Source of the DNA: a virus
Taxonomy: Duplodnaviria; Caudoviricetes
Direction: 5' to 3' (one strand)
IMG/VR virus record: IMGVR_UViG_3300002301_000037
Span: 1 to 38,712 of that record
DNA length: 38,712 bases
The notes below the pieces were generated by a model. It saw only the letters and a program-made list of their open reading frames with translations, was not told the DNA's origin and did no database searches. Every line of letters begins with the position of its first letter. The first letter of the stretch is position 1. A program made the position numbers and the translations under genes. This document shows, piece by piece, positions 1-33,166 of the stretch.

Positions 1-3000
1 CTGCTCCGGGGTCCGCGCGGCCAGTGCATCCGCTTTAGCCTTCTCTGCCGTCTTTGCTTTGACGTCCGCAACGATATCCTGCAGCGTCTGTACACCTTCA
101 GGCTTGACCGTGGGCGCCGGATTACTGACTGGGGTATGTTGCGCTTTAAGAGCCGCCGCGTCTTTGTACTCGTCGTCAGTAAGCGTCTCGCCTCGGAGTA
201 TCTTGCCGAATGCTTCCGGATGCTTCTCGTTCAGATCATTAACGAAGTCGGTCGCACCCTTGCGTCCCATCGTTTTTGCGAGGCTATCCACGAATGTGTC
301 AGCAGGCTTCTGCGCAATGCCGGCCGATCGGTTATTCAGGTCGGACTTGGCGTTCGTCCACATGGTTTGAATGTGTTCCAGTGTCGCGCCTGGAAACTGC
401 TTCAGCATCTCCGCGCCGAAGTCTTTGATGTTACGTAAGCCGCCTTCAATCAGATAAGCGCCATACTCACCTATCTCCGACTTGTTCTCAGAAATGAACT
501 TGGTAAGCGCGCCCGCTTTAGATGCCAGACTACCTTCCGCGCCGGACAGCGGGTTAATATCCGCCATACCCGTAGTCTTGCCGCCGGTGCTGCCCTTAGT
601 GGTCGATCGTGCGAGCGCGTCTTGCCAACTAGCCGCTAACTTTGCCCCTAGCTCATCGCCGCGAGATTTGGCAACCAGTTTGTTGGAAGCGCCGAATTTC
701 TCCGATGTCGGGTCGAGTATTCGATTCGTCGCCGTCCTAACGCTCTTGGTACCTTGCGCTTTCAGTGCGGCATTCTCGGCGTTTACTCGATCGATCTCGG
801 CTTTGTACTGGAGACGTTCCTGATCGACCGCATCCAGCTTAGCTTGCAGCGTTGATGTCTTATCCGCGATGTCCTGTGCAAGCGCCTTCTGAGCATCAGA
901 TAGCGGGTTGCCGTGGTTACGCGCGGTCAGCATACCCTGCACGCTCTCGACGTTGCCGGTGTTTTGGTTCACGAAGAGTTGCCGGATTGAAATACCCCGA
1001 GCTGCTGCCGTGCCGCCTTTCTGCCGTGCGTCGTCGAGGTGTTGCAGCCTGTCATTCGTTTGTGCAAGTTGGCTCCGCAGCGCATCTGCAAGATTTGTGT
1101 CGCCGCTCTTAACCGCTTCCGCGATTTGAGACTCCTGCCTCGTGGCAAGTTGGCGTTCCTGGGTAGCGCGAAAGATAATTGCAGAAGTCTCGTCGTCGTT
1201 TAGCGCCTTGCCGTTCTTGAGTACATCGTTTGACAGACCTTCGGCATATGCGCGGCCGCCGTCTTGTTGCGCGAGTAACTTCTCTCGCACTCGGTTGTAT
1301 GTGTCCTCGTGACCTTTACTTACTTCCTGTTCCAGAGGCGTAAGGTTGTCCTCGGCACGCGTCAAGTTCGCCGCCGCGTTCCTGCCGCCCGTCACCCCTT
1401 CAGGCACATCGTACGTCGTCTTGCCGCTATGGCTCTCGATGATGCGGGAACCGGTCGAATTCGGCGTCGGCTCAGCAGTTACCGGCGTCTGTGTCGCTTG
1501 CGTTGGAGTTTCGGCGGTTTCGGTGCGCGTCCCTTCGCCTGACACACTACCAGGTTGCTGTTCCGATACTGGTACACTCGTCGCAGTTGCTTCAGTCGGT
1601 TTTGTGACACTCGTTTGCTCCGTTGTGGTAGATTGCTCACCTTTCGCCGCCGGTGCGCTCTCCGTGTCTGCGAGCGGCTTCAGTTCCTCCGGGAATAGCG
1701 GTTGCACGAAGTGCGTATAGTGCTCACGGGAGGCTTGCCAGAGGTCGTTGAGGTATGGCGTTATTTTGATGCCGAATGTGTCTATCATCTCCTTAGACCA
1801 GTCGGCAACATCCAGCGCGCCGCGAGCTATCTTGACAGCGCCAACGACGGCCGCGTGATACCAAGCGGCAGGATCGGCAAAGCTGTTGAGTTGACCGGTA
1901 CTCTTTACACCAGCTTCGTAATGCGTTTTTTCGAGAGCGTCGAGTTTGGCGCGGATTGCATCTGTGGTTTTAGGTTCGGTACTGGCAGACTGGGCTACGT
2001 CCGTGGGTGGCCCGTTATACGCAGGATCTACTTGGTTTGAGGTATTGGTTGGCGCGGTTTCGTTGCCTCCGAAGAGGTCCCCGCTAATTCCGCCTTGTGT
2101 CTCTTGTACATCTGGGCGTACGCCGCTGTTTTGATTAGGTTCTGTCGGCTGAGTTCCGGCGTCAGATTTGCCTTCACCGAGGGTATCGCGTATGATTCCT
2201 CCGGACTCGAGTTTGTTGGTAAGTTTCCCGACGACTTCATTTCTGTTCTCTCCCGCGGATATACGATGAACCGCGTCCGTCACAGCGCGGCCCAATGGAC
2301 TAGAACTATGCGCGTTCTTGTCGATGATCTCACCGACCTGAGCCGCCATAGTCGCTTTATCGATCTGTTCCGGCGTCGTTCCGAAGAACGATTGCGCCGT
2401 GTCCTTGCTCATCCCCTTACCGGTCTTGATGAGCTTACCGAAGTGATCCTTAATCGCGGATACAACATCAGCACGGGTATTCATGTCGCCCAAATCGAAA
2501 TCTAATCCGCCCTGCGCTTGTGCCGCCTTAACCGCGGCAATCGCCTTTGCCTTCTCTTCGATCTGGTCGGCAGTTACCTTCTGCCCTTGCTGCATCCTCT
2601 GGTACGCGTCGTTGAACTGTTCCGTTTGCTCCTCTGGCGTATGGAAGTTGTCAGCGATAGCCGCCGCAACATTCTTGAGTTGTGGCATAACATCAGACTT
2701 CGAGTAGACCTCATTAAATACATCCTGCGGCAACTTTGTTAACGATACCGATTGACGCATTAACGCACCGCTGGAGTTGACGCCGTTATCACGCAAGAAC
2801 TGAGCCGCGTCACCTTGTCGCATAGGTGCGTTACGCAGGAAATGCGCTACGTCGAGGCTGTCGTTACGCGGACTATCCATCAGGTTTTCGACCGCGCCCA
2901 TGTGCTTCGCGTCTGCCGCGGTAGGAGCGTCAATGTATCGCACTCGCATCATTGGTACATCGAACTTCTCTGCGTTGACAAACCGATGATGCCCGTTCAC

Positions 3001-19493: not shown

Positions 19494-19610
19494 TTGCCAG
19501 AACCGGTAAACCCGCCGAGTATCGTCGTCGAGGATGTCGGCAACCTGTGGAATGTATGGGTCAAGGCTGGTAGTGTTACAGACGTTATCAGGCTTATACT
19601 GAGGTACTAA
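19494..19610 (+). CDS. 38-aa ORF paralogous to the C-terminus of the 134-aa protein
   Basis: TTG start after GGAG; LPEPVNPPSIVVEDVGNLWNVWVKAGSVTDVIRLILRY*; TAATG-coupled to the next gene; shares VGNLWNVWV with the upstream gene. Confidence 0.6.
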   Translation: MPEPVNPPSIVVEDVGNLWNVWVKAGSVTDVIRLILRY

Positions 19611-20971
19611 TGACGACTACCGAGCGTCCAACTGAACAGTCTATCTATGAACAGATGTGGAACATTGATAGCTACCGCAACACCTGTTACGGCGAGGAGT
19701 CCGTACTCCAGTTCCTGCGCCATGCTAACCCTGCAAAGGGATCTTCTGTCATAGACTTCGGTTGTGGCACCGGTCGCGCATCGCTCAAGTTGAAGTCATT
19801 AGGTTTCCAGCCTCACATGCTGGATTTCTCGGATAACTGCCGCGATCAGTCAGTCATAGACGCAGGTATCCCGTTCGCTTGCCACGATCTAACGAAACCG
19901 ATCGACAATGTAGCCGCTTACGGCATCTGTTGCGATGTCATGGAGCATATCCAACCAGACGATGTTGGTAAAGTGCTCGATAATATCCTGTTGGCGTGCC
20001 GGTTCTGTTGGTTCGATATTGCCACACATTCAGATACTTTTGGCGATCTTATCGGGCATTCATTGCATGTGTCGGTACACGACTACGAATGGTGGAGAAC
20101 CCAGTTTACGCAGCGCGAATGCCATATTATCCATTCAGAGGATACAGGCCGTTCCGTGCGGTTCCTAGTGTCAGCATGGGCCGACAATCAAGCACTCGTT
20201 GACGTTGGTGTTCTCAACATAGACGAGAGCCAGATACTCCAGAACATCCGCACTAATATCGGTAACGGATGGAACCAAGTTGTACCATGCCTCACACAAA
20301 ACACGGAGCTTCTCATACTCGGCGGCGGACCTTCATTATCTGATTATGAGAAGGAAATAAAGCGCAAACGCAAGTTAGGCGCGAAGGTAGTCTGTCTCAA
20401 CGGTTCCTATAACTGGTGTTTAGAACATGGCATTACGCCGAGCGCAGTCGTCATCGTGGATGGCAGGCCGTTCAACGCAAGGTTCACACATCCGGTAGTT
20501 GCCGACTGCCGATACCTCATTGCAAGCCAGTGCGATCCAAGTGTATTGGACGGACTACCGAAAGACCGGACGTACCTATGGCACACCACTGCTGATTTCA
20601 TCCGGCCACTGCTGGAGGAAATAGCAGGCGAATGCTACTGCATTCCAGGCGGGTCTACGGTGCTACTGAGAGCGATACCACTCCTGCGTATGATGGGGTA
20701 CTTGAAATACACACTGTATGGCTGTGATAGCTGTCTGTCGGATAGCGAGCACCATGCCTATCAACAGTCGGAAAACAACGATCAATCGGTGTTGCCGGTC
20801 GAGATCGGCGGCAGAGTATTCCAGTGTCACCCGTGGATGGCGGCACAATCGCAGGAATGGATCAGTTTGCTGAAAGTATTGCCGCACGATATGCAGATCC
20901 GAGTTAAAGGCGATGGCTTGCTGTCATTCATCATTGACCATGCGGCCACTATGAAAGGAACGATGGAATGA
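19610..20971 (+). CDS. Class I SAM-dependent methyltransferase fused to a Maf/DUF115 (MptE-like) domain, 453 aa
   Basis: N-terminal VIDFGCGTGR and CCDVMEHI; C-terminal LLILGGGPSL, VVCLNG...GITP...VIVDG, GGSTV and YTLYGCDS motifs of the Maf/DUF115 fold. Confidence 0.82.
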   Translation: MTTTERPTEQSIYEQMWNIDSYRNTCYGEESVLQFLRHANPAKGSSVIDFGCGTGRASLKLKSLGFQPHMLDFSDNCRDQSVIDAGIPFACHDLTKPIDNVAAYGICCDVMEHIQPDDVGKVLDNILLACRFCWFDIATHSDTFGDLIGHSLHVSVHDYEWWRTQFTQRECHIIHSEDTGRSVRFLVSAWADNQALVDVGVLNIDESQILQNIRTNIGNGWNQVVPCLTQNTELLILGGGPSLSDYEKEIKRKRKLGAKVVCLNGSYNWCLEHGITPSAVVIVDGRPFNARFTHPVVADCRYLIASQCDPSVLDGLPKDRTYLWHTTADFIRPLLEEIAGECYCIPGGSTVLLRAIPLLRMMGYLKYTLYGCDSCLSDSEHHAYQQSENNDQSVLPVEIGGRVFQCHPWMAAQSQEWISLLKVLPHDMQIRVKGDGLLSFIIDHAATMKGTME

Positions 20972-28892: not shown

Positions 28893-29092
28893 TGCGCATC
28901 ATCAGTGACACACAAATCTATCTTGCCTCCGGCGACGTTATCCCCGTAAAGTGTAAACAATGCGGGGATATTTACCAACCTGAGGCAGATAGCGAATGTT
29001 CAGATTGCCCAAAATGCGGGGCGCTTAATCACCACAAGCATGTTGGTGAATGGTTGAGGTCTAATCAAACAGATCGAGAGACATCGTCGTGA
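28892..29092 (+). CDS. Zinc-ribbon protein, 66 aa
   Basis: TAGTG coupling; CKQCG...CPKCG. Confidence 0.7.
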   Translation: MRIISDTQIYLASGDVIPVKCKQCGDIYQPEADSECSDCPKCGALNHHKHVGEWLRSNQTDRETSS

Positions 29093-29795
29093 AATTCTCG
29101 GTTGGTGTATTTCGGAAGTCTATAACTCTAACATGCGCTTTCCATGAATTGCACATACGACACAGGACTTGCAGGTTATCGACTTCATTTGTTCCGCCGC
29201 GCGCCAATGGCTTTATGTGATCAATACACAACTTCTCGGTTGATCCGCACCTTAGACATTTGTGACCGTCACGAGCGAAAACCAACCGTATCTCGGCAGC
29301 TTTTAGTGTACCGCCAGCGTTTAGCACCTTAGCGCGACGATCGTAGTTGTATTGGCGCAACTTGTCAGGGTTTCGCTTCAACCAATCTTTGCGCCTCTGG
29401 AGAAGAATCGACTTGTCACGCGACGCATCGTATATTTTCTGCTTTGCTTTGAACTCTGGAGTTCCATAGCCTTTAGGTTTCTTGCCGGACCCACGTTTTT
29501 TAATCGAGTAGACAGTACAGCATAGCCTGCAAGTACTATTCAAGTGATCAGCCCTGCACAACGACTTAGAAAAAGCCGACACCAACTTAACTTCTCCACA
29601 TTTAGGGCATCTCTTTGTGCCATCAGGATGTAATACAGTTGGAATAGGATAGGACGGCTTAAAACGAGGACGCAACTTCTGGCATGATTTGCAGTAACAA
29701 CACATACCATCGCCGGTCTGTTTAGATTTGTGAAAGCTAGAATGAGGCTGTTCTGTTTTACACTTGGGGCATCTCTTGAGGTAAACTTCGGACAC
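29061..29795 (-). CDS. HNH endonuclease with two N-terminal Zn-finger repeats (free-standing homing endonuclease-like)
   Basis: Two KRCPKC...F.KS....D.....C..C repeats; C-terminal RDGHKCLRCG...IDHIKPLARGGTNEVDNLQVLCRMCN; antisense to the surrounding operon. Confidence 0.92.
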   Translation of the reverse strand: MSEVYLKRCPKCKTEQPHSSFHKSKQTGDGMCCYCKSCQKLRPRFKPSYPIPTVLHPDGTKRCPKCGEVKLVSAFSKSLCRADHLNSTCRLCCTVYSIKKRGSGKKPKGYGTPEFKAKQKIYDASRDKSILLQRRKDWLKRNPDKLRQYNYDRRAKVLNAGGTLKAAEIRLVFARDGHKCLRCGSTEKLCIDHIKPLARGGTNEVDNLQVLCRMCNSWKAHVRVIDFRNTPTENFTTMSLDLFD

Positions 29796-29902: not shown

Positions 29903-32338
29903 ATGGCTAGACTAAGCCGCGATGTGATTGAAGGCGCGATAGGGTTCGACTCAACGTCCGATCGGGCTGACCTCGATCCTAAATACGCGCAGATGATTGT
30001 CAACATGCTTCCGGACCGTTCAGGCATCATTCGCGGTAACGTCTCGCTATCTCCACTCACTCAAACGTTCGCAGCTCAGATCGATGGGCTCGGTTGGTTC
30101 TACCAGGCACCCACATCCGTTCCGAAACTCCTCGTTGTTCAGAACACGACCGTAGGTTACTATCCATTAGTCAATAGCGGCGGACTACCGACCACGTACC
30201 CACCGACGTTCACCGGCCCTTCTGTTACAGCAGGCGTATTCCTCGCGGGTGAGCGCGTCCGGATGCTAGGCTTCGGAACCGAAGTATACGGCACCCAAGA
30301 GAACAACACAAATACGAACTTCCGTCTGACGTACGGCGGCTCCGTGTTTCCAATGGGCATTCCTACTCCGACGCTCATATTAGGCACTGGAGGCGTCACA
30401 ACCCAGTCAGCGCCGCTCACGGCAGGCACCGCGTTTAATGGCACTGTGACCTCTGGCGATGCGCCGTTTACGATTACTGGGGCGACGAATGCAAATCCGA
30501 TCATCATCACAACCTCAGTAGATCACGGGTACCAACCAGGCGATAGGGTATGGGTAGCAAGTGTCGGCGGCAACACGGCGGCGAATGGGTTTGCCTACGT
30601 CGGCGTCACGACTCATAACACATTCGGGCTCTTTACAACGGGTGTACCGCCGAACTACCAATTCCAATTTACCGGCGCAACGATCGTGGTCACTACCGGC
30701 GTGCCTGCGGGTTACAATCTCACGGCCGTGGGCGCGTTCACGAAATATATTTTCACCGCTGGCGACGAGGTTTCGCTGATCTCCGGAACTAACGTCAACG
30801 TGGGATCTTACGCGATCATCGGCAAGCTGAGTAACGACACGATTCAGCTCGGTACAAATCCCGTCGCGAGCGGTACGACAGCTTTTAACGTCGCAGGTCA
30901 ACCGGTCGGCAGCGGCAAAGCAGGCAGCGGCGGCTACACGAGCGGCGGCACAGTCGTCCGTTACAACAAATTCGGCGTCGTTCAGTACTCCATGACGTTT
31001 GTTGACGGCTTAGGACGCGAAAGTGACCTTTCAACGCCCGTTTCAGTCAATTTTAGCTCAACCGCGGAAGATGCGCTCATCACAGCCACCGGGCTAGCGT
31101 CCGCCGGCGCCAACGGATCGGTAGTATCCGCCAACATCTACGCCACGGCCGGCAACGGCATAGTTTTTTACCTCATTGGCAACCTCGCATGGGCGTTTTC
31201 AGACCCGTACATGGAGGATAACCTCACAGACGCCGAGGTAGACAACTCCCAGAACCAGATATCCGCCAACTTCGGGGAGAATGCGCCGCCTCTACCAGCC
31301 ACGAACCTTGCAAGCGACAACGGGCGGATCTACTTGGATGCTACGGCGTACCCAGGCGTACTCCAGATCAGTAATCAGAACAGCGCAACGCAGTTTGCAG
31401 GCACTCCGATCCAACAAACGGACGGCGAAACCATCTCCATTACCACCGATCAGGGCAATAGTCTTAACGGCTTCGCTACGTTCGGCAGTATGTTCGCTAT
31501 CTTGCTCCGGCGCGGCATGTATGTGCTCCAGGGCACCGACTACACGACGTGGTACCTAACTCGAATACACGACAGGGGCAGCATCTCGAAAGACAGCGTT
31601 GTAAGGGCCGATAATCACGTCGTATGGCTGTCAGATGACGGGGTTTATGTTGGATCGTACATTTATAGATTCCAGCTTGAGAAGATCAGCAAGCCGATCG
31701 AGAGCATCATTTACAACTACAACAGCACCGTTGCAGGTCGCGCGGCAATGGAAACCTCATGCGCGGCGTTCATGGATAACACGTACTATATCGCCATCGG
31801 CAACACGATCTACGGGTACAACTTCGATACGACCGGATGGTTCACCCTGCAGCTCAGTGGATCTGCTACCGTCACGAGCATGACGGCGATCCAGCAGCAA
31901 GGCAGCCCCGGTTTGATTTACGTCGGGCTATCGGATAATACGACACGGCAACTCGATATCTACACGCAGAACCAAAATGTGAGTGGCCAGGTTTTCCGCA
32001 CTCGCTTAGTACAACCCGATCAATCAGACCAATCGTCGCACGGTAACGCAGTGGAGACGCTGCGAGCACGAACGAAGCGTGTCCGCGTCTACGGATCCGG
32101 GCAGCTATCCAGCGGCTGCACCATCACAATGACCTGCGATAGCCGTACCGAGACGTTTGCAATACCGGCATACGGCACGACGGGGTATCCGCCGATCCCT
32201 GAAGGTGTGTACGATACTATTTGTTACCAGGAATTTACCCCGTTGTCATACGGCTACAGCCGAGACGTAACCCTATCGCTAAACGGAACGGGGATTACAA
32301 TCCAATCAATCGTCGTGGAGTCGGAAGTTATCGGCTAG
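29903..32338 (+). CDS. Tail nozzle / packaged-DNA stabilisation protein (P22 gp10 / tail tubular B-like) with inserted domains, 811 aa
   Basis: N-terminal GFD....L....AQ...NM motif; beta-propeller-like C-terminal half (GSISKDSVV...VVWLSDDGVY...KISKPI...YNFDTTGW); inserted ITGATNANPIIIT...HG...GDRV...GYTSGG module. Confidence 0.8.
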   Translation: MARLSRDVIEGAIGFDSTSDRADLDPKYAQMIVNMLPDRSGIIRGNVSLSPLTQTFAAQIDGLGWFYQAPTSVPKLLVVQNTTVGYYPLVNSGGLPTTYPPTFTGPSVTAGVFLAGERVRMLGFGTEVYGTQENNTNTNFRLTYGGSVFPMGIPTPTLILGTGGVTTQSAPLTAGTAFNGTVTSGDAPFTITGATNANPIIITTSVDHGYQPGDRVWVASVGGNTAANGFAYVGVTTHNTFGLFTTGVPPNYQFQFTGATIVVTTGVPAGYNLTAVGAFTKYIFTAGDEVSLISGTNVNVGSYAIIGKLSNDTIQLGTNPVASGTTAFNVAGQPVGSGKAGSGGYTSGGTVVRYNKFGVVQYSMTFVDGLGRESDLSTPVSVNFSSTAEDALITATGLASAGANGSVVSANIYATAGNGIVFYLIGNLAWAFSDPYMEDNLTDAEVDNSQNQISANFGENAPPLPATNLASDNGRIYLDATAYPGVLQISNQNSATQFAGTPIQQTDGETISITTDQGNSLNGFATFGSMFAILLRRGMYVLQGTDYTTWYLTRIHDRGSISKDSVVRADNHVVWLSDDGVYVGSYIYRFQLEKISKPIESIIYNYNSTVAGRAAMETSCAAFMDNTYYIAIGNTIYGYNFDTTGWFTLQLSGSATVTSMTAIQQQGSPGLIYVGLSDNTTRQLDIYTQNQNVSGQVFRTRLVQPDQSDQSSHGNAVETLRARTKRVRVYGSGQLSSGCTITMTCDSRTETFAIPAYGTTGYPPIPEGVYDTICYQEFTPLSYGYSRDVTLSLNGTGITIQSIVVESEVIG

Positions 32339-32355
32339 CTCACCAACAAATCGGC

Positions 32356-32380
32356 CCGACTTCATAGCGATATGAGTCGG
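32356..32380. terminator. Stem-loop downstream of the nozzle gene
   Basis: CCGACTTCATA-GCGA-TATGAGTCGG (one bulge; GNRA loop on plus strand); followed by TTTGTT on the minus strand. Confidence 0.5.
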
Positions 32381-32400
32381 ACCGTTCGCCGTGCCAATCA

Positions 32401-32510
32401 AGAACCGGGCGCTCTTACCGCTAAGCTACTCCCGATCTATATCCCTGATGGGCTTATGGATTGCTCCAGGATCGCGAGGCAAGATTTGAACTTGCGCCTC
32501 CCAGCTTATG
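32401..32510 (-). ncRNA. Circularly permuted tRNA-like element (3' half, 35-nt spacer, 5' half)
   Basis: 3' half 32510-32471: CATAAGCTGGGAGGC-GCAAG-TTCAAAT-CTTGC-CTCGCGA-T. 5' half 32435-32403: TCGGGAG-TA-GCTT-AGCGGTAA-GAGC-G-CCCGG-TT. Acceptor and anticodon stems pair between the halves. Confidence 0.72.
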
Positions 32511-32539
32511 TGTACACACTCAACTATACCCCAAACACC

Positions 32540-32575
32540 ACAATGCCTCGCCGTTCTTAGCCGGCGAGGCATTGT
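32540..32575. repeat. Perfect 14-bp inverted repeat with 8-nt spacer
   Basis: ACAATGCCTCGCCG-TTCTTAGC-CGGCGAGGCATTGT. Confidence 0.95.
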
Positions 32576-32592
32576 AGGAGCAGAGACCAGAC

Positions 32593-32853
32593 ATGAGAAC
32601 CAACGAACAGGTAAACTATACCACACATCGACCAGAAAGGCATCAGATGGACGCAACAACTGACGAACCTCGTAGGATTAAGCACAACCGCGCGAAGTGC
32701 CTGGTATGCGGCGACACGATCGAAAGCAAGTCTCGCCACGACTACGTAACGTGCACTTGTGGAAATATCTCGGTAGACGGCGGCAGAGCGTACCTTGCAC
32801 GAATGGCAACTGACCTTCAGAAGTTTGAGGAGTTATCGGAATATGAATCCTGA
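32593..32853 (+). CDS. Small Cys-rich phage protein (DUF7695-like Zn-binding)
   Basis: NRAKCLVCGDTIESKSRHDYVTCTCGNISVDGG pattern; AGGAG upstream. Confidence 0.78.
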   Translation: MRTNEQVNYTTHRPERHQMDATTDEPRRIKHNRAKCLVCGDTIESKSRHDYVTCTCGNISVDGGRAYLARMATDLQKFEELSEYES

Positions 32854-33166
32854 AATGGCGCACACAGAGAACGGCACAATAGCCCACGGCACGAACGCCG
32901 TAGAGATAGACCCGGCAACCTACGTTCATATCAGTCGCGAAGAGATGCGGAACAACCTCCCAGATCCACTGAAGCTCAGAAACGAGCTAATACGGCTACG
33001 GAAGCACCTGGTACTGTCGAACGCGGCGTCCGGCTTAGATCCAAGGCTGATAGCGCACGCAGCACGCATAGCGGAATTGAAACAACTCTCGGGCGGTGAA
33101 TTGATGAACCCTGAAAGCGCGATGAATAGGATACGGGATATCGAGGAGAAGCTGAAGGACAGGTGA
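32843..33166 (+). CDS. Hypothetical helical protein, about 107 aa
   Basis: GAGGAG SD before ATG 32843; overlaps the upstream stop; converges with the minus-strand block. Confidence 0.65.
   Translation: MNPEMAHTENGTIAHGTNAVEIDPATYVHISREEMRNNLPDPLKLRNELIRLRKHLVLSNAASGLDPRLIAHAARIAELKQLSGGELMNPESAMNRIRDIEEKLKDR

What the first reader, a model, noticed from the sequence alone, without database searches (positions are those of the whole stretch)
32401..32510. Circularly permuted tRNA-like gene broken at the anticodon loop
Seen: on the minus strand a tRNA 3' half comes first (32510-32471; perfect T-arm GCAAG-TTCAAAT-CTTGC), then a 35-nt spacer, then a tRNA 5' half (32435-32403; T8, A9, D-stem GCTT/GAGC, A14, G15, GG in the D-loop). 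The halves look cognate: GATCGGGAG pairs with CTCGCGATC (8 of 9, one G-G mismatch), CCCGGTT pairs with AGCTGGG (7 of 7, two G-U), and G15-C48 is present. The spacer holds two mini-hairpins (TGGA-GCAA-TCCA with a GNRA loop; CCC-ATCA-GGG). CCA is not encoded, and a TATAGT -10-like box lies upstream at 32528-32523. Established: permuted tRNA genes are known from red and green algae and a crenarchaeon, and permuted two-piece tmRNAs from bacteria; I do not know of a phage example. Inference: the transcript folds into a tRNA L-shape with an open anticodon end. It could be an anticodon-less tRNA mimic or decoy against anticodon-nuclease defences, an RNase P processing signal, or a substrate for ligation. 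The anticodon is ambiguous (CAT from the 3' half or CTT from the 5' half). Alternative: a fragment spanning two tandem paralogous tRNA genes, or a recombination scar.
Basis: partly seen in the sequence, partly recalled or inferred. Interest (0 to 1): 0.85.

Follow-up and report, generated by a model that had tools for sequence, protein, structure and literature searches.

The report
Back-to-front tRNA born by duplication
A freshwater phage carries a tRNA look-alike whose two halves lie in swapped order, broken just before the anticodon; faint tRNA traces on both sides suggest it likely arose from a duplicated tRNA gene, and it is predicted to act as a tRNA-shaped decoy rather than to read codons.

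Summary
A 3' tRNA half (32510-32471), a 35-nt spacer and a cognate 5' half (32435-32403) lie on the minus strand between two genes of a podovirus-like phage. All core tRNA invariants are kept. The break falls at 33|34: one half ends U32-U33, the other starts with CAU-A37-A38. New here: both missing outer halves seem to survive as decayed remnants (anchored tests p about 0.001-0.007; unanchored alignments not significant). The T-acceptor-D order is that of YrlA Y RNAs, already known from phages. However, YrlA membership fails: no Rfam match, no 5' Ro60 motif, and no TROVE gene in a record only 55% complete. There is no bulge-helix-bulge and no RtcB, so religation into a decoding tRNA is unlikely. 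Best reading: a stand-alone, pre-opened tRNA mimic or decoy (0.4). No orthologue was found, so there is no covariation and no expression evidence. This scan has noted permuted tRNA-like phage RNAs on other DNA many times; no note on outer-half remnants came up.

The parts
32471..32510 (-). Intact tRNA 3' half, positions 34-73: CAU-A37-A38, anticodon-stem 3' strand, variable loop, T-arm, acceptor 3' strand, U73
   Evidence: Sequence; 22.9 bits on a generic 3'-half matrix, the top score in the window; C34 lies 15 nt before G49, the canonical distance
32436..32470 (-). 35-nt spacer closing the acceptor stem: 2-bp extension (73 and 74 with -1 and -2), C74-C75-U76, a 4-bp GNRA hairpin and a 3-bp hairpin
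   Evidence: first hairpin pairing probability 0.93
32403..32435 (-). Intact tRNA 5' half, positions 1-33: acceptor 5' strand, U8, A9, D-arm with A14, G15, G18, G19, G26, anticodon-stem 5' strand, U32-U33
   Evidence: top 5'-matrix score in the window, 12.4 bits; this D-arm type belongs to CAT tRNAs in 7 of 10 other metagenome hits
32370..32402 (-). Likely decayed outer 3' half in exact register after U33 (CTT at 34-36, C48, G53, U54, C56, G57, A58, U60, C61 kept; T-stem and acceptor pairing lost); overlaps the downstream hairpin
   Evidence: 4.3 bits; 52-60 of 77,356 window positions and 6 of 5000 shuffles score as high; 13 of 27 identical in register to the inner 3' half; unanchored alignment not significant
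32511..32533 (-). Likely decayed outer 5' half (U8, A9, Y11, A14, G15 kept, about 10 nt lost); holds the -10-like hexamer at 32528-32523
   Evidence: 10.1 bits; 9 of 77,356 positions, 24 of 5000 shuffles and 1 of 91 real tRNA upstream regions score as high; unanchored alignment not significant
32340..32392 (-). Stable hairpin with a U-rich tail, likely the terminator of the RNA, convergent with the tail gene; its 5' arm holds a GNCGAAN0-1G match at 32390-32383
   Evidence: z -4.61 for 32400-32335; inverted repeat I11; not called by the terminator scan; the motif occurs 46 times in the window
32540..32575 (-). Perfect 14-bp hairpin upstream, likely a terminator or insulator
   Evidence: Repeat I1; z -4.24 for 32612-32530; a related strain changes one A-U pair to G.U on the minus strand
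32614..32625 (-). Extended -10-like 12-mer, 11 of 12 identical to 32533-32522; candidate promoter
   Evidence: Repeat D9; function inferred
29903..32338 (+). Convergent neighbour: 811-aa tail or virion protein gene
   Evidence: PHROG tail and virion matches; 2 full-length relatives at 59% and 52%
32647..32853 (+). Divergent neighbour: DUF7695 gene (68 aa); it fixes the intergenic region as 32339-32646
   Evidence: Pfam PF24749 at 1.9e-25; 14 synonymous and 5 other codon changes in this frame (32500-32949) in a related strain

Best explanation
This is a circularly permuted tRNA body, opened between positions 33 and 34, that likely arose from a tandem duplication of a CAU-type tRNA gene and is predicted to work as a non-decoding tRNA mimic, most likely a decoy for host proteins that grip or cut tRNA. 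Shown: the anatomy, the cognate pairing of the inner halves, the intergenic position between two hairpins, and the absence of a splicing motif. Inferred, step 1: two tRNA copies lay in tandem, the outer halves decayed and were absorbed into promoter-like and terminator sequence, and the inner halves were kept as a pair. Step 2: a short RNA is made from a promoter near 32528 or 32620 and ends at the hairpin below 32390. Step 3: after 3' trimming it folds into the L-shape, with its two ends forming a 7-bp helix in place of the anticodon arm. Step 4: host RNase P and CCA-adding enzyme may open the acceptor end to give a two-piece RNA, as shown for M. smegmatis YrlA; the paired -1/73 and -2/74 bases may hinder this. 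Step 5: with no closed anticodon loop it cannot decode and offers nothing for an anticodon nuclease to cut, so it could occupy such an enzyme or another tRNA-binding protein.
For: All core tRNA invariants lie in the inner halves, and inner-inner pairing is 6/7, 4/4, 5/5 and 5/5. The outer flanks keep tRNA-like residues but have lost their stems; such one-sided decay is not expected of two copies decaying at random. Nine other permuted elements show no such remnants (in-register downstream scores -15 to -48 against +4.3; upstream at most 6.9 against 10.1). Duplication with loss of outer segments is the published model for permuted tRNA and tmRNA genes (PMC3978253, passages). Six of 52 other terminase-clade records hold an intact tRNA-CAT at the match, three of them near-identical. 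The same topology is recognised by TruB, DusA, RNase P and the CCA enzyme in YrlA (PMC4201824). tRNA-cutting defences, and phage tRNAs that counter them, are established (PMC12445682 and PMC13096335, abstracts). That PrrC cuts 5' of the wobble base is recalled, not from a call.
Against: No orthologue was found, so there is no covariation. With the downstream trailer attached, a rival fold wins narrowly (cloverleaf -67.1 against -68.1 kcal/mol; acceptor pairing probability 0.09). The remnant tests are post hoc, and unanchored alignments of the copies are not significant (113 and 175 of 1000 shuffles). Published counter-defence works through intact replacement tRNAs; the passages read do not mention decoys (0 occurrences in PMC11555353). 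No target or partner is identified. Body sequence does not fix the isotype. The promoter and terminator scans call neither site.
Confidence: 0.4

Rival explanations
1. A non-functional relic: two tandem tRNA copies are decaying, or a once-selected permuted RNA is now lapsing, and nothing useful is made.
For: Tandem origin is supported. No orthologue in any scan. One acceptor mismatch, a +1/-1 indel pair around the anticodon stem, and a competing fold with the trailer.
Against: Stem-breaking and invariant-breaking changes fall almost wholly in the outer halves (by inspection; matrix scores 22.9 against 4.3). The region is flanked by two strong hairpins. In a related strain only 1 of the 20 listed differences in contig 32520-32850 falls below 32632 (4 further differences are not listed, and the contig does not reach the element).
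Confidence: 0.27
2. A divergent Y RNA: the tRNA-like domain is bound by a Ro60/Rsr protein encoded in the unsequenced part of the phage or by the host, with the downstream hairpin as the Ro-binding module placed 3' instead of 5'.
For: Same helix order as YrlA. A GNCGAAN0-1G match opens the downstream long hairpin, and YrlB-type partners are long hairpins. Three of the other permuted phage elements lie beside TROVE genes. The record is only 55% complete.
Against: No RF02553 or RF02565 match. No motif 5' of the T-arm. No TROVE in the record, although YrlA lies within 4 kb of Ro60 as a rule. TROVE is in 0 of 33 terminase-clade records, 3 of them rated complete. The motif occurs 46 times in the window.
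Confidence: 0.18
3. The permuted body is one domain of a longer RNA (about 270 nt, 32608-32340), or the remains of a two-headed tRNA in which the outer halves formed a second tRNA body.
For: The order 5' half, 3' half, spacer, 5' half, 3' half is that of two-headed RNAs noted earlier in this scan. The 278-nt stretch folds at z -4.3. An extended -10-like box lies at 32625-32614. Weak signs of a third repeat unit with period 92-98 nt (56 and 97 of 2000 shuffles).
Against: The outer halves do not pair with each other (at most 4 of 7 acceptor pairs by inspection; outer T-stem 1 of 5). The fold energy is largely due to the two local hairpins. In the long RNA the cloverleaf helices are not favoured.
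Confidence: 0.09
4. A true permuted tRNA gene: the ends are ligated at the anticodon loop and the spacer is cut out, giving a decoding tRNA-CAU (or one with an 8-nt loop).
For: U32-U33 and CAU-A37-A38 are both kept at canonical positions. The rejoined halves pass ARAGORN. C74-C75 are present.
Against: No bulge-helix-bulge on the anticodon stem (central helix 1-2 of 4 pairs in the four registers that keep the stem), and all known permuted tRNAs depend on one (PMC3978253). No RtcB in the record. The 33|34 join gives an 8-nt loop with a 5-bp stem, or a 7-nt loop with only 3 of 5 pairs. U73 and the acceptor pairs do not match usual Met or Ile identity (recalled).
Confidence: 0.06

Closest known systems
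YrlA (Y RNA-like A; Rfam RF02553; Chen et al. 2014, PMC4201824, parts 1-3 of 5 read)
   Same: T-arm, then closed acceptor stem, then D-arm; Levitt pair; RNA ends pair where the anticodon arm would be; occurs in phages; a 7-bp acceptor as in the RNase P-cleaved M. smegmatis YrlA.
   Different: No covariance-model match; no 5' GNCGAAN0-1G; no long Ro60-binding stem; no TROVE gene in the record; keeps the anticodon-loop residues at both ends; flanked by remnants of the outer tRNA halves; branched 35-nt spacer.
Circularly permuted tRNA genes of unicellular algae and Thermofilum pendens (Soma 2014, PMC3978253, passages read)
   Same: 3' half before 5' half with a spacer at the acceptor end; the proposed origin by duplication and loss of outer segments fits this locus.
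   Different: Those form a bulge-helix-bulge at their termini, are circularised by the splicing machinery and end as normal tRNAs. This one has no such motif and sits in a tailed phage.
Two-piece (permuted) tmRNA (PMC3978253 passages; Rfam RF04321)
   Same: Permuted gene in a bacterial setting, not religated, same proposed origin.
   Different: No tag reading frame or pseudoknot domain, and no Rfam match; this element has a full D-arm and an anticodon-side helix.
Other phage permuted tRNA-like elements found here (L081, L082, L098 beside TROVE; L084, L097; L088, L090; L095; L107)
   Same: Same helix order, 20-35 nt spacers, scores 20-24 on the descriptor.
   Different: They lack YU/CAU-AA in register and lack outer-half remnants. 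Five of the nine give weak YrlA matches over the element itself. None is an orthologue.

Membership tests
YrlA Y RNA | T-arm, acceptor-like stem-loop and D-arm in that order, with tRNA tertiary bases | tested here: met
   definition from PMC4201824
YrlA Y RNA | GNCGAAN0-1G motif near the 5' end | tested here: not met
   None upstream of the T-arm; the nearest match is 3' of the module at 32390-32383, and the window holds 46 matches
YrlA Y RNA | Ro60/TROVE gene within about 4 kb on the same strand | tested here: not met
   PF05731 absent from the record, which extends more than 6 kb on both sides; record 55% complete
YrlA Y RNA | Match to Rfam RF02553 | tested here: not met
   0 candidates; no match at E up to 10 in a 311-nt scan
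YrlA Y RNA | Bound by Rsr; pseudouridine 55 and dihydrouridine; RNase P cleavage in some | not testable with these tools
   Needs RNA experiments
Permuted tRNA gene (algae, archaea) | 3' half upstream of a cognate 5' half that rebuilds a cloverleaf | tested here: met
Permuted tRNA gene (algae, archaea) | Bulge-helix-bulge at the junction of the termini | tested here: not met
   Central helix 1-2 of 4 pairs in the four registers that keep the anticodon stem
Permuted tRNA gene (algae, archaea) | Religation through a circular intermediate to an aminoacylated tRNA | not testable with these tools
   Needs RNA data; no RtcB in the record
Ordinary tandem tRNA pair | Each copy has its own D-arm, T-arm and acceptor stem | tested here: not met
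   ARAGORN finds no gene; the outer halves are remnants without stems
Two-piece tmRNA | Tag-coding piece and match to tmRNA models | tested here: not met

The most novel reading that the evidence does not exclude
A phage gene caught in the act of permutation: a tandem tRNA-CAU duplication whose outer halves are still visible and whose inner halves make a stand-alone tRNA already opened at 33|34. Host RNase P and CCA-adding enzyme mature it into a two-piece tRNA that anticodon nucleases cannot destroy and that inhibits them like a product, with no Ro60 partner. It would be a new type of RNA counter-defence and a direct record of how YrlA-like and two-headed phage RNAs arise.
Probability: 0.25. 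Interest if true: 0.8.

Novelty: new variant of a known kind. Interest (0 to 1): 0.52.

Why it matters
[quoted passage not shown] The review passages I read name only one partial intermediate, an extra 5' half in Ostreococcus. This locus appears to keep traces of both outer halves, in a phage. It also gives a minimal, roughly 120-nt natural construct for asking whether a tRNA already opened at the wobble position can blunt tRNA-cutting defences, and whether YrlA-shaped RNAs can work without Ro60. Its weight is limited: it is a single sequence without orthologues or expression data, and this topology is known from YrlA and has been noted often in this scan.

Tried and rejected
Orthologue searches all failed. 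blastn against 50,697 phage records gave only 5 short, weak matches. Exact T-arm and D-arm patterns gave 0 hits in viral contigs. A degenerate pattern gave 32 viral loci (9 permuted-type of other families, the rest tandem or intron-bearing tRNAs) and 11 metagenome loci (1 the window itself, 0 of the other 10 permuted). Patterns that keep CAT-AA gave 4 viral loci (0 permuted at the match) and 4 genome loci (1 YrlA-like, 1 tRNA with a long insertion in the anticodon arm, 1 tRNA-like pair, 1 chance). Protein-led scans of viral contigs found no relative for the terminase alone, for P0122 or for the tail alignment. The terminase alignment gave 80 distant loci (26-40% identity) with no credible permuted tRNA. 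A model of 9 permuted elements searched over 53 records (the window's own plus 52 of the 80) found only the window's copy as permuted; I inspected 11 of the 16 loci returned. No RNA holder was listed among sequencing runs. The related strain in run X6 has no contig over the element. Isotype assignment by body sequence was inconclusive: best single match a CAT tRNA, 6 of the top 20 CAT against 28 of 194, tRNA-Pro highest on average, and the set is biased by my patterns. A third repeat unit at 32625-32534 is only weakly supported (827 of 7696 window positions score as well against the rejoined halves; pieces at p 0.02-0.05), and Tandem Repeats Finder gives nothing. The minus-strand ORF 32678-32929 was rejected as a gene. 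Two ESM Atlas look-ups of neighbouring ORFs gave no usable hit. NCBIfam names none of 30 small ORFs. The host could not be inferred (best named phages 24-27% identical by terminase). A low-threshold ARAGORN call across the upstream hairpin is spurious.

Full report
Setting. The window is a whole virus record, linear and rated 55% complete. Portal, SU10-type adaptor, tail-spike and terminase matches mark it as a podovirus-like tailed phage. The two runs that hold at least half of the stretch are freshwater metagenomes. The element lies on the minus strand in an intergenic gap, 32339-32646. On one side is a convergent 811-aa tail gene. On the other is a divergent DUF7695 gene at 32647-32853, whose frame is confirmed by synonymous changes in a related strain (14 synonymous, 5 other). 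The host is unknown.

Observation. All stated features are present. The inner halves keep U8, Y11, A14, G15, G18, G19, A21, R24, Y25, Y32, U33, R37, Y48, G53, U54, U55, C56, R57, A58, Y60 and C61. Pairing is 6 of 7 in the acceptor (plus 2 extra pairs), 4 of 4 in the D-stem, 5 of 5 in the T-stem and 5 of 5 in the anticodon stem (extended to 7). A post hoc descriptor finds this one site at 23 of 24 points, and 0 of 100 simulated windows exceed 20. Rejoined halves pass ARAGORN with a 7-nt loop. Two runs other than the possible source span it without differences. Rfam has no match.

The break. Counted from the D-arm, the 5' half ends in U32-U33. Counted from the T-arm, the 3' half begins exactly at 34 with CAU, A37 and A38. 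So the opening is at 33|34. The 5-bp stem forms one base out of register, which would leave an 8-nt loop and a 4-nt variable loop if the ends were joined. A CAU-type parent is likely: this D-arm type belongs to CAT tRNAs in 7 of 10 other metagenome hits, two of them near-identical, and six of 52 other terminase-clade records carry an intact tRNA-CAT at the model match, three near-identical. Against this, whole-body similarity does not fix the isotype, and those relatives are distant and not clearly syntenic.

Outer halves. The 33 nt that follow U33 score 4.3 bits on a matrix of 181 tRNA 3' halves, in exact register. Only 52-60 of 77,356 window positions and 6 of 5000 shuffles do as well, and the result holds when CAT, CTT, TAT and GAT tRNAs are left out (4.1 bits, 83 positions). 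The 16-mer starting at 32533 scores 10.1 bits as a tRNA 5' end; 9 of 77,356 positions, 24 of 5000 shuffles and 1 of 91 real tRNA upstream regions do as well. Nine other permuted elements show neither signal. The limits are real: the tests are post hoc, free local alignments of the copies are not significant (113 and 175 of 1000 shuffles), and the upstream remnant may partly be a promoter, since a near-identical 12-mer lies at 32625-32614 and scores 5.1 bits. I put a tandem origin at about 0.7. A third unit further upstream is only hinted at. Duplication with loss of the outer segments is the published model for permuted RNA genes (PMC3978253, passages). Segmental amplification of a phage tRNA gene under pressure from a tRNA-cutting defence has been shown for T6 through a homing endonuclease (PMC13096335, abstract); an HNH nuclease ORF lies at 29061-29795 here, but no link is shown.

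Selected or decaying. The outer halves have lost their stems (downstream T-stem 1 of 5 pairs; upstream D-loop GG and about 10 nt gone), while the inner pair has one mismatch and one compensated indel pair. This asymmetry is the main argument for selection on the permuted form, in place of covariation that I could not obtain. Strong hairpins flank it (z -4.2 and -4.6). In the short RNA the T, acceptor and anticodon-side helices have probabilities of 0.92-0.99. With the trailer attached a rival fold is 1 kcal/mol better and the acceptor falls to 0.09, with tertiary contacts not counted, so 3' trimming or co-transcriptional folding would matter.

How it likely works. Religation is unlikely: known permuted tRNAs need a bulge-helix-bulge and splicing enzymes (PMC4238349, passages), the four registers that keep the anticodon stem have only 1-2 of 4 central pairs, and no RtcB is in the record. 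The nearest working model is YrlA, whose permuted tRNA domain is modified by TruB and DusA and, when the acceptor has 7 pairs, is cut by RNase P and given CCA (PMC4201824, parts 1-3 of 5). Here C74-C75 are encoded and a 7-position acceptor is present, though pairs at -1/73 and -2/74 may shift or hinder cleavage (recalled). Either uncut or two-piece, the RNA would show a tRNA elbow and acceptor helix with no closed anticodon loop. I commit to a mimic or decoy role against tRNA-binding host proteins, most likely tRNA-cutting defences (0.4). Such defences and phage tRNA counter-measures are established (PMC12445682, abstract; PMC11555353, listing and passages; PMC10264068, listing only), but through intact tRNAs. 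That PrrC cuts at 33|34 is recalled. Rivals are a relic (0.27), a divergent Y RNA with an unseen Ro60 (0.18), a domain of a longer or two-headed RNA (0.09) and a ligated decoding tRNA (0.06).

Membership. It works like the tRNA domain of YrlA but is not a YrlA: no RF02553 match, no 5' GNCGAAN0-1G, no TROVE in the record or in 0 of 33 terminase-clade records. It is not a permuted tRNA gene of the algal or archaeal kind, nor an ordinary tandem pair, nor a tmRNA. A broader pattern scan found 9 permuted-type elements among 32 viral loci, three of them beside TROVE genes; none is an orthologue.

Novelty. Seven paper searches returned no description of a stand-alone permuted tRNA in a phage other than YrlA; the library lacks most subscription journals, and the YrlA supplements were not read. 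PMC4090602 (passages) added nothing. This scan holds 126 notes with the words permuted, tRNA, phage, anticodon and YrlA. None resembles this stretch by sequence, there are none on this genome, and none came up for duplication remnants or for a stand-alone CAT form. Verdict: a real feature and a new variant of a known kind. Its special value is the open 33|34 junction and the apparent traces of its origin. It is limited by having no orthologue, no expression data and no identified partner. Interest 0.52.

Noticed in passing
window 32647-32853 (+) and 32846-33166 (+): A two-gene plus-strand island (DUF7695 and an unknown 106-aa ORF) inside the minus-strand block of small genes. A related strain confirms the DUF7695 frame; the overlapping minus ORF 32678-32929 is not a gene.
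   Followed up: yes
window 32625-32534 (-): A possible third, more decayed repeat unit (period 92-98 nt) with a CT-CAT loop at 32597-32593 and a hairpin end resembling the downstream hairpin; support is weak (p 0.02-0.1).
   Followed up: partly
L081, L082, L098 (about 1680-2290, minus strand): Clusters of two or three permuted tRNA-like RNAs with weak YrlA scores (30-42 bits, cut-off 69) directly beside a divergent TROVE gene; long closing stems and a hairpin in the acceptor loop.
   Followed up: partly
L084 2001-2067 (-) and L097 2001-2066 (+): Related permuted elements with an initiator-tRNA-like body, encoded CCA and an unstructured spacer of about 20 nt, next to an intact tRNA; no TROVE in the partial records.
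   Followed up: partly
L088 and L090, 2001-2071: A permuted tRNA-like element with a perfect 10-bp hairpin in the spacer, an int-alpA RNA match 1.4 kb away, and no TROVE match in a record rated complete.
   Followed up: no
L095 (978-1045 and 1973-2088) and L107 (1930-2350): Jumbo-phage tRNA arrays with several permuted or nested tRNA-like elements between ordinary tRNAs; no TROVE match in either complete record.
   Followed up: no
L150, about 1915-2200 (Hyella patelloides): Two tRNA-ordered RNAs in tandem whose anticodon arms are replaced by long insertions holding a GNCGAA-type motif.
   Followed up: no
L152 2010-2087 (Amycolatopsis): A YrlA-like RNA (39 bits) with an 18-nt acceptor loop and the same seven bases at positions 32-38 as the window's element; it was found by a pattern that required them.
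   Followed up: partly
L153 1969-2130 (Rhizomicrobium MAG): Two tandem tRNA-like genes with abnormal anticodon loops (no U33; one with a 6-nt loop).
   Followed up: no
L140, about 1470-1545 (G049): A tRNA-like gene with a CAT loop, a weak anticodon stem and a T-arm close to the window's, missed by ARAGORN, in a terminase-related phage.
   Followed up: no
window 19610-20971 (+): A methyltransferase fused to an MptE-like domain inside the tail gene block.
   Followed up: no
window 29061-29795 (-): An HNH endonuclease ORF on the strand opposite to the tail genes, 2.6 kb from the element.
   Followed up: no
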